Made by a program: the position numbers and the translations under genes. 64,000 nucleotides of DNA. It comes from Escherichia phage vB_EcoM_G4507. Shown one piece after another: positions 2,448 through 63,959 of the stretch; the first letter of the stretch is position 1, and the number at the start of each line of letters is the position of its first letter. Where the stretch lies: sequence record NC_054919.1; one strand, given 5' to 3'. The notes beneath the pieces are model-generated. The model ran no database searches, was not told where the DNA came from, and saw nothing but the letters and a program-made list of their open reading frames with translations.

Positions 2448-4264
2448 TATTGGCTCATCCATTCTTTACGAAGGTCAGCATTATCTCCCATGAGCATTTC
2501 AAAAAGCTCTTTCCAGTTCTCAGGAAGTTTAACAACATCATATACTGGGTTTTGAATCATCTCACGATATTCAGATTTTTCCAAAGAGCCAAGTCCCTTA
2601 ATATAACGGATGCTATGTTTAGGTAGAGCATCTTTGGCACTCTCATATTCAGCGACTGTATAAAACCATTCTTGTTTTTTACCGACCTGAGCGATGATTA
2701 CAGGAGTTTTGACAAAGCGAATTCTTCCTTGTTCAAACAGTTCTGGCCAATTACTAAAAAATCCGAGCAGAGAAGGATAAATGCTTCCTAAACCATCATG
2801 GTCAGCATCGGTCATAATAGCAATATTATGATAATTCAAGTTTTCAGCTTTTTCACCAAGAACTAATCCAGTGATTGCGCAAATATCAAATAGTTCTTTG
2901 TTTTTAAGCATATCAGCATATGACATACCCCAACTGTTGAGAACTTTACCACGCAATGGATAACCACCATGAAGTTCTTTATCACGAACATCAATAAGAT
3001 ATCCGATAGCAGAATCACCCTCAGTCAAGAAAAGAGTAGTGTCAGCATCTTTACCACAAAGATTCGCTTTGATATGTTTATGAACCTTAGCTTTAGAAGC
3101 CTTTTTAGCTGCTTTAGTTTCTGCTGCTTTTTCTGCTGCCAATTTACGTGCTAAAGCAGCTTCAATAATCGGCATTAAAATTGCTTCATTATTTAGAATA
3201 GCGCGTGAAATCTTTTTAGCATCAAGTTGAATATGACTACGAATTTCACCAAAAGGAGAAGTAAGTCGTTCTTTAGTTTGAGAATCAAATCGCATGTTTT
3301 TCATATCACGGACAAACATAACGATAGTCAAACATTCTTTGACACGCGCTTTAGTTACATCAATTTTGAACTTACGTTTGATTTGTGGAATAAGGTCTTC
3401 ACAAATATCATCCATAACACAGTCAATGTGATGGCCACCATTCTTAGTGTGAATGTTATTCACATAAGTTAATTGACGAAAACCATCCGGTGAACGACCA
3501 ACCGCAATAGAACAATTTTCTTGTTCTTGAACAATAGCATGTTCATCATACTGTCGTGCATATTTCTTAAAATTGCCCTGAACCTTTTTACCATTAAAGG
3601 TAAATTGAATATCAGGATAAACAACAGCAAGTGTCTGGAGACGATCTAGTGTAATGTCAAGATAAACTTGAGACAGCTCATTAGTTTCAAATGACATAAA
3701 ATCTGGAATGAAAGTAACACGAGTTCCTTTCCATTTTCCAGGAATAGTTTCCCATGATTTATTTTCCATGCCATTTGAACAACGAACTACAATATTATTT
3801 TGACCATCGCCAGTTTCACCGACAAACATCACAGAAAAAATGTTAGTTAAACTAGAACCAACACCATTCATACCACCGGTGACACGTTCTTTATCATCAC
3901 CAAAGTTACCACCTGCTTTTGGAATAGTCCATGCAGCAACAGGACCAGGAATTTCTTCACCGGTAGGTGTTTTAACCATCGCCTGCGGAATACCACGACC
4001 GTTATCTTCAACTGTTACTTGATTGTTTTTAATAGTAACATTAATTTTATTTGCGAATTTAAACTTAGTACGAATACCTTCATCTACTGAGTTATCGATA
4101 ATTTCATCAATAAGCTTAACAAGACCAGGTACATACTGAACACTTTCCCATTTACCAAACAGAAAGCGCTCATGCATTTCATTAGCAGAAGAGCCAATGT
4201 ACATGCCACTACGCTTTTTGATATGTTCAATATCGCTCAGAATTTTAATTTCATTCTTAATCAT
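2447..4264 (-). CDS. 39: DNA topoisomerase II large subunit (GyrB-like ATPase plus C-terminal part that is separate gene 60 in T4)
   Basis: 605 aa from ATG (track ORF begins one codon earlier at GTG); TOPRIM-type motifs EGDSA and IMTDADHDG; GAGGA RBS. Confidence 0.93.
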   Translation of the reverse strand: MIKNEIKILSDIEHIKKRSGMYIGSSANEMHERFLFGKWESVQYVPGLVKLIDEIIDNSVDEGIRTKFKFANKINVTIKNNQVTVEDNGRGIPQAMVKTPTGEEIPGPVAAWTIPKAGGNFGDDKERVTGGMNGVGSSLTNIFSVMFVGETGDGQNNIVVRCSNGMENKSWETIPGKWKGTRVTFIPDFMSFETNELSQVYLDITLDRLQTLAVVYPDIQFTFNGKKVQGNFKKYARQYDEHAIVQEQENCSIAVGRSPDGFRQLTYVNNIHTKNGGHHIDCVMDDICEDLIPQIKRKFKIDVTKARVKECLTIVMFVRDMKNMRFDSQTKERLTSPFGEIRSHIQLDAKKISRAILNNEAILMPIIEAALARKLAAEKAAETKAAKKASKAKVHKHIKANLCGKDADTTLFLTEGDSAIGYLIDVRDKELHGGYPLRGKVLNSWGMSYADMLKNKELFDICAITGLVLGEKAENLNYHNIAIMTDADHDGLGSIYPSLLGFFSNWPELFEQGRIRFVKTPVIIAQVGKKQEWFYTVAEYESAKDALPKHSIRYIKGLGSLEKSEYREMIQNPVYDVVKLPENWKELFEMLMGDNADLRKEWMSQ

Positions 4265-61483: not shown

Positions 61484-61845
61484 TACAAACTCTCGGTGAA
61501 GGTACGAGCGATAACGTCGCGCTGCTGTTCCGGAGTCAGAGAGTTAAAGCGAACTGCATAACCGGATACACGGATGGTCAGCTGCGGATATTTTTCCGGA
61601 TGCTTAACTGCATCTTCCAGAGTTTCACGACGCAGAACGTTAACGTTCAGGTGTTGACCACCTTCAATTTTAACTGTAGGTTGTGTTTCAATTTCAATTT
61701 CACGGGCATGCAAACCGTAGAAAATTTCCGGGTCTACAAAAGAGTCCTCTTTAAAGGTTTTAGAGACAATAATTCGTGCTTGAATACCATCTTCAAAATA
61801 AATAGTACCTTTATGTGTGCCTTCAAGAATTTGATATGCTTTCAT
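61483..61845 (-). CDS. autonomous glycyl-radical cofactor (GrcA/YfiD-like; T4 Y06I-like)
   Basis: 120 aa; C-terminal ~60 aa including [31 protein letters not shown] match E. coli GrcA as recalled; 3' half markedly GC-richer than flanks. Confidence 0.8.
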
Positions 61846-61852
61846 ATAAACC

Positions 61853-62182
61853 TCAATTAGAAAATAAATTTATCCAAGATTGTTCTTTAATTAAAAACGG
61901 CTCAGAATCATATGCCATTAAACTTTGCGTAATTAATCCTTTAAAAGGTCCATCAATAAATTCCATGGTAAAATATGGAATTTTATTCATTAGCCGTGCA
62001 TTAGGAGCAGTACATAAAACTCTGCATCCTTTGAATACACCTTTTTGTAATTTGTATTGCTTGGGATAAAATTCGCTCAAAATGTTATTATTTGCTAAAA
62101 TTTCAAAATGATTCACCAATTTATTTTTAATAGTTTTTGGCGAAAAATAAAGATATTCGAAAAGTTGCGTATCTGTCATCAT
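61853..62182 (-). CDS. hypothetical protein
   Basis: Start at MMTDTQ giving ATGA overlap with upstream gene. Confidence 0.5.
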
Positions 62183-62721
62183 TGCATTCCAATTACGAAA
62201 AACTGCGGACGAGTAATACCACCAATACAGCATTTACTATTGCAGCAATATTGCACAGTTTCAATATGAATATCGTAAATTTTATCCATATCAGGAGATT
62301 TAACAGGCTCATCGATTATATACAAAATTCGAGAAAGCGATAAACCTCTGAACTTGCTACCTCTATTACCAACAAAACTACGGACAGAATCAGTAAATAA
62401 ACGGAATCGAATATCATCGCTAGAATAACGAGAAAATTCTTTTTTAATGCGGCCCACAGAAATTTTAGCGTAAGCTGAAGTATTAGAAAGAACAATAACT
62501 GTTCCACCATCATACAACCAATTAGCGGCAAAATTAGTTGCTGCAGTTGATTTACCGGATTGTCTGCCACCATCTAAACGAAGTGTACAATATTCTTTAA
62601 ATAAATACGACGAATCAGGTACATAAAATCCACTATTACAAATTTCTTCTACTCTAGCGTCAGAATGGTGTGTAAAAGCATTCATCAGGGATAGATAAGG
62701 ACCAGTTAAAAATGTTCTCAT
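62179..62721 (-). CDS. small P-loop NTPase
   Basis: ~180 aa from MRTFLTGPY; Walker A GGRQSGKST, Walker B ILYIIDEP; Cys-rich C-terminus. Confidence 0.55.
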   Translation of the reverse strand: MRTFLTGPYLSLMNAFTHHSDARVEEICNSGFYVPDSSYLFKEYCTLRLDGGRQSGKSTAATNFAANWLYDGGTVIVLSNTSAYAKISVGRIKKEFSRYSSDDIRFRLFTDSVRSFVGNRGSKFRGLSLSRILYIIDEPVKSPDMDKIYDIHIETVQYCCNSKCCIGGITRPQFFVIGMQ

Positions 62722-62865
62722 GTTATTTCTCTTAAGGTTTTTGGGCCATTCCGTGGCGCATGAATTGTCCATTTCTGTATTTACCCATTACCGCACTTGG
62801 GCTCGACCTTATTACAGGTTGGCGGGAATCCCTCATAGAATCATGAGGTCCAGGTTGTTCCCATA

Positions 62866-63340
62866 TTATTTGAACGATTTAACGTACTGAATAGAACCTT
62901 TACTATTTACAAAGGCAATTTTACCATTTTTATTATACATGGTAGCAGTACGCTGATAGCCATAAGTTTGCTTACCAGATTGATAACCAACTAATGCAAA
63001 ATTATCTTCACCCATTTTATTCTGTTTAGCGCGAATGCGTTCATGACCATGTGCCATAAGAACCTTAGCATCACCAGTTACAATGGATCGACGAGTTTTT
63101 TCATCTTCAACTGTATTAACAAAGTCGTCAAATGAATCAAATTTAGCATGAGATTTATTATACAGTTTTCCATCTACTGCATAATTATATCCCTGTACAT
63201 CCATCTCAACTTCTGTACCATCATCCAATACAGCAGTAATTTTCTGTCCTTTTTTTAAATTTCAAAAGATCAGTAAAAGATTCAGCAATAATTTGAGAAT
63301 TAATAGCTGCTTCAGTGATAAATTCTTGATATGTTTTCAT
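62866..63340 (-). pseudogene. internal-protein (ip)-like gene interrupted by +1 frameshift at an A7 tract
   Basis: ATG at 63340 encodes MKTYQEFITEAAINSQIIAESFTDLLKFKK then hits a stop after the A7 run (63250..63256); remaining 120 codons continue in +1 frame; A6 would give one ~158-aa ORF. Confidence 0.55.
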
Positions 63341-63394
63341 GTGTTTCCTTTAAATATTTTAATTAGTAATTTGTCTCTTCAAGCAACTGTGAAT

Positions 63395-63424
63395 ATACTA
63401 TCACAATTCTAGGAGAAAGTAAAC
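63395..63424 (-). promoter_or_regulatory. early-type promoter upstream of ip-like gene (GTTTAC -35, TAGTAT -10)
   Basis: Minus-strand motif. Confidence 0.5.
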
Positions 63425-63428
63425 AACT

Positions 63429-63959
<531 letters not shown>

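What the first reader, a model, noticed from the sequence alone, without database searches (positions are those of the whole stretch)
62179..62860. Small P-loop NTPase with GC-rich structured leader where T4 carries denV
Between the GrcA-like gene and the ip-like gene I expected endonuclease V (denV) from T4 synteny, but no ORF resembles it. Instead there is a ~180-aa protein with Walker A GGRQSGKST, Walker B ILYIIDEP and a Cys-rich tail. It is preceded by a ~110-nt unusually GC-rich segment (62745..62860) with several stable hairpins (for example CCTCAT-n6-ATGAGG inside GGGAA...TTCCC). This looks like a locus replacement and a candidate accessory gene with its own RNA element.
Basis: partly seen in the sequence, partly recalled or inferred. 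Interest (0 to 1): 0.5.

Follow-up and report, generated by a model that had tools for sequence, protein, structure and literature searches.

The report
T4 vs.8 gene with conserved leader RNA
The P-loop gene is the ordinary, uncharacterised T4 gene vs.8 and not a replacement for denV, but the GC-rich stretch in front of it is a strongly conserved, pseudoknotted non-coding RNA that matches no Rfam family, is annotated as protein in T4, and also occurs beside tRNA genes in unrelated phages.

Summary
The sequence facts hold. There is a 180-aa P-loop ORF (62179-62721, minus strand). It is preceded by about 120 nt of 49% GC (62743-62862) in a 34% GC genome, and the window has no denV.

The ORF is T4 vs.8 (86% identical), which in T4 sits next to denV. 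denV, ipII and ipIII are simply missing from the variable cassette region between e and vs.8. Vs.8 is a single RecA-like ATPase domain of helicase/terminase type; its Cys-rich tail is not conserved.

The GC-rich segment is the interesting part.
- It is non-coding (frame-breaking indels between phages; T4's 219-aa vs.8 annotation reads it as protein).
- It is more conserved than codon position 2 of vs.8.
- It folds into P1, P2, a three-way junction (P3/P4/P5) with about 25 near-invariant bases, and a pseudoknot (P6). Compensatory changes support this fold.
- The same core lies in or near tRNA operons of Vequintaviruses, a Pseudomonas phage and other phages that lack vs.8.
- It has no Rfam match and no match in bacterial genomes.

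Its function is unknown. I favour an autonomous RNA module (processing or stable RNA) over a vs.8-specific regulator.

The parts
62179..62721 (-). vs.8 coding sequence (180 aa + stop): a single RecA-like P-loop ATPase domain. Walker A is DGGRQSGKS and Walker B is ILYIIDEP. Its stop overlaps the vs.7 start (ATGA).
62743..62862 (-). Conserved non-coding RNA element (about 120 nt, 49% GC), running from P1-5' (GGGAA) to GGCCC. It begins 3 nt after the stop codon of the upstream Ip4-like gene.
   Evidence: Nearly invariant among the window, T4, RB3 and MLF4, with frame-breaking indels. Nucleotide diversity (pi) is 0.028, against 0.042-0.176 at the vs.8 codon positions. Coordinates.
62824..62862 (-). 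P1 (GGGAA 62858-62862 / UUCCC 62824-62828). It encloses the junction J1/2 and the P2 hairpin.
   Evidence: P1 covaries between lineages: GGGAA/UUCCC, GGGAG/CUCCC, AAAGG/CCUUU, AAAGC/GCUUU, AAAGA/UCUUU, GAAUG/CAUUC, GAGUG/CACUC, GGAAC/GUUCC, GAGGG/CCCUC.
62831..62848 (-). P2 hairpin, CCUCAU-GAUUCU-AUGAGG.
   Evidence: Compensatory CCUUAU/AUAAGG in L049, a U-G wobble in L002, and a paired deletion CU-A/U-AG in L018. P2 is absent in some non-T4 lineages.
62783..62823 (-). Three-way-junction core. It comprises P3 (GCC 62821-62823 / GGU 62783-62785), the P4 hairpin ACCU-GUAAUA-AGGU (62806-62819), and the strand CGAGCC-N5-GCGGUAA (62788-62805) containing a possible P5 (GCC 62800-62802 / GGU 62790-62792).
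   Evidence: Covariance model R1 gives 71.6 bits, E = 5e-25, and this is the only hit in the 64-kb window. The two inner P3 pairs are 100% paired with CG, GC, AU, UA and GU types. Covariation score is 0.227 against 0.067 in shuffles (0 of 500 shuffles as high) and at most 0.067 when partners are slid. P4 has one compensatory change (KIL5, ACCA/UGGU). P5 is almost invariant, so it is untested.
62775..62853 (-). Pseudoknot P6: J1/2 (CUG, 62851-62853) pairs with CAG (62775-62777). It is only 3 bp in this allele and 4-8 bp in other lineages.
   Evidence: Best cognate versus non-cognate stem scores in 24 lineages were 12.5 against 10.3, with 0 of 20000 permutations as high. In the RB69-type alignment, 2 of 3 pairs change on both sides and 100% of cells are paired.
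62745..62757 (-). 3' hairpin GCCA-CGGAA-UGGC, followed by CC. Together with an upstream AUGGA (about 62763-62767), this is specific to T4-like phages and stays next to vs.8.
   Evidence: Present in all Tevenvirinae alleles. It is retained in the natural deletion variant G2133 and only in the vs.8-proximal copy of tandem pairs. It is invariant, so there is no covariation evidence.
62722..62742 (-). Variable spacer holding the weak Shine-Dalgarno sequence (AAGAG) of vs.8.
   Evidence: pi = 0.173, with indels of 1, 3 and 8 nt between phages.
62866..63340 (-). Ip4-like internal-protein gene (DUF7412). In this window it is frameshifted by one extra A in a homopolymer (T7 on the + strand, 63250-63256). 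It is the only cassette left between e and the RNA element.
   Evidence: Pfam DUF7412 at E = 6e-74. Annotated as Ip4 in RB3 and SA20RB. Frameshift seen.
61853..62182 (-). vs.7, the next gene downstream in the same transcription unit.
   Evidence: 99% identical to T4 vs.7. Annotation.

Best explanation
Shown: The ORF is the ordinary early gene vs.8 of T4-like phages, a 180-aa stand-alone RecA-like (helicase/terminase-type) P-loop ATPase domain of unknown role. denV is absent because the window carries a minimal version of the variable cassette region between e and vs.8, with one frameshifted Ip4-like gene in place of T4's ipIII-ipII-denV. The GC-rich 120 nt (62743-62862, minus strand) is not part of the protein. 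It is a conserved structured RNA domain with these parts: stem P1; optional hairpin P2; a three-way junction (P3, P4 and a likely P5) carrying about 25 near-invariant nucleotides (ACCU-GURRNA-AGGU-C-N-AGCC-N5-GCGGUAA); and a pseudoknot (P6) between the P1-enclosed junction and the sequence 3' of P3.

Inferred: The domain is transcribed as part of the early ip-to-vs.8 message. The same core, in the same architecture, sits at the head of or inside tRNA operons of unrelated virulent phages that have no vs.8. It can be duplicated in tandem, and it can be lost while vs.8 stays. I therefore read it as an autonomous RNA module, not a vs.8-specific operator. The variable helices would be a scaffold that presents the invariant junction to a conserved partner or catalytic site.

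Most likely action (speculative, roughly 0.3 within this explanation): an RNA-processing or stability module. It would either cut itself or recruit an RNase, so separating vs.8 or tRNA transcripts from upstream RNA, or it would persist as a stable small RNA. The T4-like-specific 3' hairpin with two GGA motifs is the part that truly belongs to the vs.8 leader.
For: Gene identity:
- 86% identity to T4 vs.8, with the same neighbours.
- Homologues occur in about 1000 phage records, all listed ones being Tevenvirinae-size genomes (one 100-kb record aside), down to about 40% identity.
- The fold is a single RecA-like domain.

Non-coding status:
- T4's annotated 37-aa N-extension is the element read in a frame that is out of register in the window.
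- Indels of 1, 3 and 8 nt occur between phages.

Selection:
- Element pi is 0.028, against 0.052, 0.042 and 0.176 for vs.8 codon positions 1, 2 and 3, 0.173 for the spacer, and 0.318 upstream.

Structure:
- Core alignment of 36 sequences: 90% of cells paired, covariation 0.227 against 0.067 in shuffles (0 of 500 as high), slid controls at most 0.067.
- Full-length alignment of 14 RB69-type sequences: 98.9% paired, 0.124 against 0.045 (0 of 500), slid controls at most 0.025, and P6 compensatory.
- P6 cognate against non-cognate test: 0 of 20000 permutations as high.
- G-U pairs occur on the transcribed strand only (P5 G-U in 36 of 36 sequences, P3 G-U in 11 of 36). This points to RNA of this strand.

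Autonomy:
- The core is found in Vequintavirus (118 records with the full-length version), Pseudomonas phage KIL5, the 45-kb phage Ivi, 46-70-kb contigs and others.
- It lies on the same strand as, and usually within about 1 kb of, tRNA genes in 7 of 11 non-T4 lineages.
- Tandem second copies occur in Karamvirus-type phages.
- A natural deletion of P1 through the core keeps vs.8 in phage G2133.
- A vs.8-like gene in a different genomic context has no element.

Not a known family:
- No Rfam 15 match even at E <= 10 for three divergent versions.
- No real hit in 185,579 bacterial and archaeal species genomes, and none in E. coli genomes.
Against: - No expression or processing data were available, so transcription, stability and cleavage are all inferred.
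- Folding energy is not better than shuffled sequence (z = 0.46), and the antisense strand folds as well (-32.7 against -29.6 kcal/mol).
- P4, P5, P2 (within RB69-type phages) and the 3' hairpin are invariant or nearly so (P4 has a single compensatory change, in KIL5). They therefore rest almost wholly on complementarity.
- P6 is only 3 bp in the window's own allele, and its cognate score ranks 22nd of 24 there.
- Helices were first defined by eye and then tested on alignments built around the conserved core. That favours the proposed structure somewhat.
- In about 1000 Tevenvirinae the element is always directly upstream of vs.8. This is also what a cis-regulator would look like.
- tRNA proximity is loose (57-800 nt), and no tRNA gene was found in the DNA held for 4 of 11 lineages (some held stretches are short).
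Confidence: 0.6

Rival explanations
1. The element is a cis-regulatory leader of vs.8: a riboswitch, or an operator bound by Vs.8 or a host protein such as CsrA, which controls translation or read-through into vs.8-vs.7-vs.6.
For: It always lies immediately 5' of vs.8, in the same orientation, in about 1000 Tevenvirinae records, even where Vs.8 is only about 40% identical. An invariant junction held by variable helices is typical of aptamers. The conserved T4-like 3' part carries two GGA motifs (AUGGA, and NGGAA in a hairpin loop) 15-25 nt upstream of the start codon.
Against: The same core and architecture occur in phages without any vs.8 homologue, in or beside tRNA operons. In phage Ivi the sequence suggests a small separate transcription unit, by my reading of hexamers. 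No terminator or SD-sequestering alternative was found. The spacer with the SD is the least conserved part. G2133 keeps vs.8 without the core. Tandem duplication puts a full copy far from the start codon.
Confidence: 0.2
2. The element is a member of the HDV-like self-cleaving ribozymes. These include the phage 'theta' ribozymes that flank tRNAs, and they cleave at the 5' edge of P1.
For: The strand order is the nested double-pseudoknot topology of HDV-like ribozymes: P1-5', pseudoknot-5', hairpin, P1-3', a helical domain, then pseudoknot-3'. HDV-like theta ribozymes are known next to phage tRNAs (PMC10879173). P1 usually starts with G.
Against: The strand that would be J4/2 varies from 0 to 24 nt and has no conserved C (KIL5 has AA, Ivi has G). 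The hairpin equivalent to P3/L3 is 3-6 bp with a non-conserved loop, or is absent. The conserved nucleotides lie in what would be the dispensable P4. No Rfam HDV-type model matches at E <= 10. The element is not within +/-5 nt of a tRNA.
Confidence: 0.05
3. The segment works at the DNA level, as a recombination boundary or cassette-shuffling site (like PeSL elements), an origin, or a homing target. Its conservation would reflect that role and not an RNA fold.
For: Homology among T4, MLF4, RB3 and the window resumes exactly at the first base of P1, so the element is the fixed right border of the variable ip/denV cassette region. In G2133 an early-promoter cassette has recombined into the element. 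PeSL-mediated shuffling is documented in T4-type phages (PMC2839356, PMC4122927).
Against: Compensatory changes keep base pairing in five helices. G-U pairs occur on one strand only. Orientation always matches the neighbouring transcription. The element has no promoter or terminator consensus. The core is shared with phages that lack this cassette region.
Confidence: 0.07
4. One reading: a P-loop accessory gene with its own RNA element replaced denV.
For: denV is absent from the window, and the segment is GC-rich relative to the genome.
Against: T4 itself has this gene (vs.8) and this RNA segment immediately downstream of denV. Phage MLF4 has denV, ip4, the element and vs.8 together.
Confidence: 0.02
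5. The segment encodes protein: either the N-terminal extension of Vs.8 as annotated in T4 (219 aa), or the 56-aa plus-strand ORF 62720-62890.
For: T4 RefSeq annotates vs.8 from an ATG inside the P2 hairpin. Open frames exist in the window.
Against: The T4 frame is out of register with vs.8 in the window. RB3 has a 1-nt insertion inside the element, and the spacer has 3- and 8-nt indels. RB69-, Karam- and KP15-type versions differ by many indels. Stop codons appear in the core in KIL5 and L033. Most annotators start vs.8 at MRTF/MKFL.
Confidence: 0.02

Closest known systems
T4 gene vs.8 (NP_049732; phrog_1488)
   Same: It is the same gene: 86% amino-acid identity, with the same position between vs.7 and the denV/ip cassettes and the same upstream segment.
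   Different: T4's record starts the ORF 37 codons too early, inside the RNA element. The window allele differs mainly at residues 40-50.
HDV-like ribozymes, including phage theta ribozymes (PMC10879173)
   Same: Nested double-pseudoknot strand order, and occurrence in phage tRNA regions.
   Different: There is no conserved catalytic C in J4/2, no conserved L3/P1.1, and the conserved core lies in the P4-equivalent domain. The element is not adjacent to tRNA ends and matches no Rfam model.
T4 stable RNAs rnaC and rnaD (species 1 and 2) in the tRNA cluster
   Same: They are small non-coding RNAs of unknown function co-located with phage tRNA genes. That is the context in which the non-T4 versions of this element are found.
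   Different: There is no sequence or structure similarity: model R1 finds nothing in T4 68,000-75,000. In T4 the element is 6 kb away from the tRNA cluster, in an mRNA leader.
PeSL promoter-terminator cassettes and hyperplastic regions of T4-type phages (PMC2839356, PMC4122927)
   Same: They explain why denV, ipII and ipIII come and go between e and vs.8. An early-promoter cassette precedes the ip gene here, and one replaced part of the element in G2133.
   Different: The element itself has no promoter or terminator consensus, is twice as long, and has a pseudoknotted fold.
RecA1 domain of SF2 (DEAD-box/RIG-I/Mfd) helicases and the ATPase domain of large terminases (T4 gp17, Sf6 gp2, P74-26)
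   Different: Vs.8 is a single 180-aa domain, with no second RecA domain and no nuclease domain. The Pfam Terminase_6N score is below threshold (16.3 against 22).

Membership tests
T4 vs.8 family (phrog_1488) | Full-length sequence similarity to T4 Vs.8 | tested here: met
   BLASTP 86% identity, E = 1e-120. phrog_1488 at E = 1e-76 over residues 3-180.
T4 vs.8 family (phrog_1488) | Synteny: upstream of vs.7-vs.6(GrcA)-...-regB and downstream of the e/ip/denV cassettes | tested here: met
   Annotated loci of T4, RB3, MLF4, SA20RB and PG7, and the alignment.
Large terminase ATPase (Pfam Terminase_6N / phrog_2) | Profile match above the curated threshold, plus a C-terminal nuclease domain | tested here: not met
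   Terminase_6N scores 16.3 bits against a cut-off of 22. The phrog_2 match covers only residues 46-150 (E = 1.5e-7). The protein ends after one domain.
   No Pfam hit to such families at E <= 1. The top structural neighbours are RecA-like helicase and terminase domains.
RecA-like (ASCE) NTPase domain | Walker A, Walker B with acidic residues, and a RecA-like alpha/beta fold | tested here: met
HDV-like / theta ribozymes | Nested double-pseudoknot arrangement of helices | tested here: met
   Strand order is P1-5', P6-5', P2, P1-3', the P3/P4 domain, then P6-3'.
HDV-like / theta ribozymes | Conserved catalytic cytosine at the first position of J4/2 | tested here: not met
   The linker between P3-3' and P6-3' is 0-24 nt and lacks a C in KIL5 (AA), Ivi (G), L078 (G) and L012 (none). 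The requirement is stated in PMC10879173.
HDV-like / theta ribozymes | Short P3 with a conserved L3 that forms P1.1; match to the Rfam HDV-type models | tested here: not met
   The P2 loop varies (GAUUCU, GACG, GAAA, UAA), or the hairpin is absent. No Rfam hit at E <= 10.
HDV-like / theta ribozymes | Self-cleavage in vitro | not testable with these tools
   Needs transcription and cleavage assays.
Riboswitch / cis-regulatory leader | An aptamer coupled to an expression platform (a terminator, or an SD-sequestering alternative helix) for the downstream gene | tested here: inconclusive
   There is no terminator-like site on the minus strand at 61800-63500. The SD spacer is poorly conserved. Non-T4 copies precede promoters or tRNAs, not ORFs. 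Ligand binding is untestable here.
Any Rfam 15 family | Covariance-model match | tested here: not met
   There are no matches in the element at E <= 10 for the T4-type, RB69-type and Vequintavirus versions. The whole window has none at gathering score.
tRNA / tmRNA | Cloverleaf recognised by ARAGORN | tested here: not met
   No gene called in 62000-63500.

The most novel reading that the evidence does not exclude
The element is a previously unrecognised class of autonomous functional RNA shared by T4 and other virulent phages of Gram-negative bacteria. One possibility is a new self-cleaving ribozyme with the double-pseudoknot topology of HDV-like ribozymes but a different active site in a three-way junction. 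Another is an RNA that docks on tRNA or a tRNA-processing enzyme, or acts as a decoy for a host defence. This would explain why it travels with tRNA operons. It would have been hidden in the most-studied phage genome because it was annotated as the N-terminus of vs.8.
Probability: 0.15. Interest if true: 0.85.

Novelty: new variant of a known kind. Interest (0 to 1): 0.55.

Why it matters
The gene itself is ordinary. The result for the gene is a correction: no locus replacement occurred, and the T4 reference probably mis-annotates the vs.8 start by 37 codons.

The RNA is worth attention for three reasons:
- A 120-nt pseudoknotted domain under stronger constraint than the neighbouring protein is present in roughly a thousand sequenced T4-like phages, including T4.
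- It shares a near-invariant core with elements in tRNA operons of unrelated phage families.
- It is absent from Rfam and from bacterial genomes.

T4 is genetically tractable, so the function can be tested directly by deletion, compensatory mutants, RNA end-mapping and in-vitro cleavage. An answer might also shed light on why phages carry non-tRNA RNAs in their tRNA clusters.

Tried and rejected
- RNAalifold on a plain MAFFT alignment of 23 T4-like versions gave a poor consensus (-7 kcal/mol). It missed P1, because T4-type and RB69-type 5' parts were misaligned, and it cannot show the pseudoknot. I replaced it with anchored alignments.
- RNA duplex folding of long flanks, cognate against non-cognate, was too noisy (mean rank 11 of 23, p = 0.02). 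I replaced it with an ungapped-stem test on defined segments.
- Thermodynamic stability is not significant, and the antisense strand folds equally well.
- Rfam searches, ARAGORN and E. coli genomes found nothing.
- T4 rnaC and rnaD are unrelated.
- The bacterial genome scan gave only GC-rich coding false positives (L036 and L037), as did some metagenome and viral hits (L038, L047, L051, L065, L071, L072, L076).
- Literature searches for vs.8, for the core sequence and for phage tRNA-cluster RNAs found no description of the element.
- A zinc-binding role for the Cys-rich tail is rejected. The cysteines are not conserved, and the region has pLDDT below 50.
- Resemblances of the core to the twister L4 loop, the SRP Alu UGUNR motif, the RNase P J11/12 sequence 'GCGGUAA' (a T-loop motif), the tetraloop receptor and the TPP thi-box came from memory only. 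None is supported by Rfam hits or by the variation pattern.
Full report
**What is at the coordinates**

The window is a Tequatrovirus (T4-like) genome. Its closest record is phage ECP52 at 99.9%, and every gene in this region lies on the minus strand. The ORF listing gives an ORF at 62179-62772, 197 aa. All homologues start at the internal ATG, MRTFLT (62721), so the protein is 180 aa.

The segment 62745-62860 is 49.1% GC in a window of 34.3 +/- 4.6% GC. That places it in the top 0.2% of 116-nt windows. The hairpin CCUCAU-n6-AUGAGG nested inside GGGAA...UUCCC is present. tblastn with T4 DenV finds nothing in the 64 kb (best E = 2.2). One caveat is that the predicted folding energy is no better than for shuffled sequence (z = 0.46).

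**The gene is T4 vs.8, not a replacement for denV**

In T4 the order is e, ipIII, ipII, denV, vs.8, vs.7, vs.6 (GrcA-like)..., regB. The window protein is 86% identical to T4 Vs.8 (E = 1e-120), and the DNA aligns base for base from the GC-rich segment through vs.8 and vs.7. RB3 annotates the same ORF as vs.8.

What differs between phages is the cassette region upstream:
- T4 has ipIII-ipII-denV.
- MLF4 has denV-ip4.
- RB3, SA20RB and this window have only an Ip4-like gene (DUF7412).

Homology between these phages resumes exactly at the first G of the GC-rich segment. Gain and loss of cassettes flanked by early promoter/terminator repeats is documented for T4-type phages (PMC2839356, PMC4122927).

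**The protein**

Vs.8 belongs to phrog_1488, of unknown function. It has weak similarity to the ATPase part of large terminases (phrog_2 at E = 1.5e-7; Pfam Terminase_6N at 16.3 bits, below the cut-off of 22). Homologues appear in about 1000 phage records, all listed ones being Tevenvirinae-size genomes, down to about 40% identity. The family has only 54 cluster representatives among 1.8 billion proteins.

Invariant residues are DGGRQSGK (Walker A), IIDEP (Walker B), two arginines and the C-terminal FFVIGMQ. The cysteines of the tail are not conserved.

**The GC-rich segment is non-coding and under strong constraint**

T4's record starts vs.8 at an ATG inside the hairpin and reads the segment as 37 extra residues. 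In the window that frame is out of register with vs.8. RB3 has a 1-nt insertion inside the segment, and the spacer before the true start has 3- and 8-nt indels.

Among 15 distinct Tequatrovirus alleles, nucleotide diversity (pi) is as follows:

| Region | pi |
|---|---|
| 120-nt element | 0.028 |
| vs.8 codon position 1 | 0.052 |
| vs.8 codon position 2 | 0.042 |
| vs.8 codon position 3 | 0.176 |
| Spacer | 0.173 |
| Upstream of the element | 0.318 |

A non-coding stretch that is more conserved than second codon positions is under purifying selection of its own.

**Structure**

Comparing T4-type, VR5-type, RB69-type, KP15-type, Karamvirus-type and non-T4 versions gives a common architecture, described here on the minus strand.

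- **P1** is GGGAA/UUCCC in this window. It changes to GGGAG/CUCCC, AAAGG/CCUUU, AAAGC/GCUUU, AAAGA/UCUUU, GAAUG/CAUUC, GAGUG/CACUC, GGAAC/GUUCC and GAGGG/CCCUC in other lineages.
- **P2** is an optional hairpin inside P1 (CCUCAU/AUGAGG). L049 has the compensatory CCUUAU/AUAAGG, and L018 has a paired deletion.
- **P3** follows directly after P1. It encloses a 4-bp hairpin, **P4**, with a G-U-R-R-N-A loop, and the near-invariant strand C-N-AGCC-N5-GCGGUAA. That strand may form a 3-bp **P5**.
- **P6** is a pseudoknot between the junction after P1-5' and a stretch a few nucleotides 3' of P3. Examples are CUG/CAG (T4-type), AAACCG/CGGUUU, CGCCG/CGGUG, CACAC/GUGUG, CGC/GCG, CUCGA/UCGAG, CCAGCA/UGCUGG, GUGAGGG/CCCUUAC, AUAGCA/UGCUAU, CUCCGG/CCGGAG and GCCCU/AGGGC.

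Formal counts:

| Test | Paired cells | Covariation score | Shuffled mean | Shuffles as high | Slid controls |
|---|---|---|---|---|---|
| 47-nt core, 36 distinct sequences | 90% | 0.227 | 0.067 | 0 of 500 | at most 0.067 |
| Full-length RB69-type, 14 sequences | 98.9% | 0.124 | 0.045 | 0 of 500 | at most 0.025 |

In the core alignment, the two inner P3 pairs are always paired, with four or five pair types. In the RB69-type alignment, two of the three P6 pairs change on both sides. A cognate against non-cognate stem test for P6 over 24 lineages gave 12.5 against 10.3, with 0 of 20000 permutations as high.

G-U pairs occur throughout on this strand (P5 in 36 of 36 sequences, P3 in 11 of 36). 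This fits an RNA of the transcribed strand better than a DNA cruciform.

Weak points:
- P4, P5 and the 3' hairpin hardly vary.
- P6 is only 3 bp in the window's allele.
- The helices were first found by eye.

**Distribution**

A blastn search with the element hits 1115 phage records. These include genomes unrelated to T4, at up to 95% identity over the 43-nt core. Carriers outside T4-like phages are:
- Vequintavirus, such as phage navn (118 records carry the full-length Vequintavirus version);
- Pseudomonas phage KIL5;
- the 45-kb phage Ivi;
- Klebsiella phage KpCHEMY26 and related 46-70-kb contigs;
- several further lineages from IMG/VR and metagenomes.

These phages have no vs.8 homologue. 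In 7 of 11 such lineages the element lies on the same strand as tRNA genes and usually within about 1 kb of them. It is mostly upstream of them, and once it lies between two of them. In Ivi the sequence suggests a small separate unit between a terminator and a promoter; this is my reading of the hexamers.

The exact core pattern is absent from representative genomes of 185,579 bacterial and archaeal species, apart from two GC-rich coding false positives. The element has no match in E. coli genomes. No Rfam 15 family matches any of three divergent versions at E <= 10, and the whole window has no Rfam match at gathering score. ARAGORN calls nothing. A covariance model of the core (R1) finds one copy in the window (62780-62826, 71.6 bits) and none in the T4 tRNA/rnaC/rnaD region.

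**Modularity**

- Some Karamvirus-type phages carry two tandem copies between denV and vs.8. Only the copy next to vs.8 has the T4-like 3' hairpin GCCA-NGGAA-NGGC.
- In phage G2133, P1 through the core has been replaced by an early-promoter cassette, while the 3' part and vs.8 remain.
- A divergent T4-like contig with conserved synteny has the element.
- A vs.8-like gene placed next to rIIA in another phage does not.

The core therefore behaves as a separable module. The 3' hairpin region is the part tied to vs.8.

**Mechanism**

Three things are shown: the gene's identity, the non-coding status of the segment, and a conserved pseudoknotted fold with an invariant junction.

Two things are inferred. 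The element is transcribed within the early ip-to-vs.8 message, because no promoter or terminator consensus lies between them and an early promoter lies upstream of the ip gene. It also acts as RNA.

The core recurs without vs.8, in tRNA operons, and tolerates duplication and loss. I therefore favour an autonomous RNA module whose variable helices hold an invariant three-way junction. That junction would serve either for catalysis or processing (separating downstream RNA from upstream RNA) or for binding a partner conserved across Gammaproteobacteria.

A vs.8-specific riboswitch or operator is the main rival (0.2). It explains the fixed position in T4-like phages but not the other contexts. 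I also found no expression platform.

**Comparison with known systems**

The strand order is that of HDV-like ribozymes, and HDV-like 'theta' ribozymes are known beside phage tRNAs (PMC10879173). The defining features fail, however:
- there is no conserved C in the J4/2-equivalent linker (0-24 nt; AA in KIL5, G in Ivi);
- there is no conserved L3 or P1.1;
- the conserved bases lie in the P4-equivalent domain;
- no Rfam model matches;
- the element is not adjacent to tRNA ends.

I therefore do not file it as an HDV-like ribozyme. It is also not a PeSL cassette, not a tRNA, and not related to T4 rnaC or rnaD.

**Verdict**

The finding as interpreted (locus replacement by a new accessory NTPase) is wrong, and the gene is already known. 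The 'structured leader' is real, widely conserved and, as far as these resources show, undescribed. It is mis-annotated as coding sequence in the T4 reference.

Function remains open. The claim that it is a new RNA family rests on Rfam 15 and on full-text searches that found nothing. It could have been described in literature not held here.

Noticed in passing
window 63250-63256 (T7 on + strand; gene 62866-63340, minus strand): The Ip4-like internal-protein gene (DUF7412) is frameshifted by one extra A in a homopolymer run, relative to RB3, MLF4 and SA20RB. The intact frame gives only 120 aa from a TTG start. This is either a sequencing error or a real pseudogene.
   Followed up: partly
L004 (T4 NC_000866) 3302-3413, i.e. 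T4 64,801-64,912: The T4 reference annotates vs.8 as 219 aa, starting at an ATG inside the P2 hairpin of the RNA element. Comparative data indicate the start is 37 codons downstream (MRTFLT...), giving 182 aa.
   Followed up: yes
L025 8960-9230; L062 5093-5250: Some Karamvirus-type phages carry two tandem, diverged copies of the RNA element between denV and vs.8. The second copy has a shortened core (GGUC-AGCC-CGCG-GCGGUAA).
   Followed up: partly
L079 (phage G2133) 1440-1560: This is a natural variant in which an early-promoter cassette (GTTTAC...TAGTATAAT) replaces P1 through the core of the element. The junction lies at GG|GGTAAATACAG, and vs.8 is intact.
   Followed up: partly
L012 5130-5970 (minus strand); also L059, L063, L068: In 46-kb phage contigs the element lies in an ~850-nt stretch with no convincing ORF, between a sigma-70-like promoter and a tRNA cluster. 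That stretch contains repeated modules ending in CAACAGGUAA(G/U)(A/G)GCAUU, which may be an array of several small RNAs.
   Followed up: no
(database names of vs.8 homologues): Some records name Vs.8 homologues, or their neighbours, 'endoribonuclease' or 'terminase large subunit'. Nothing found here supports the endoribonuclease name. It looks like annotation transfer from nearby regB.
   Followed up: no
L082 1-259: A divergent vs.8 homologue (P0050) is preceded by 259 nt of relatively GC-rich sequence with no called gene and no match to the core model R1. It may be a different leader or RNA.
   Followed up: no
window 1-64000: No Rfam family reaches its gathering score anywhere in the 64-kb window.
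   Followed up: yes
window 62179-62182: The vs.8 stop codon and the vs.7 start codon overlap (ATGA), which suggests translational coupling. The long ORF listed for vs.7 (61853-62233) over-extends the real 109-aa gene.
   Followed up: partly
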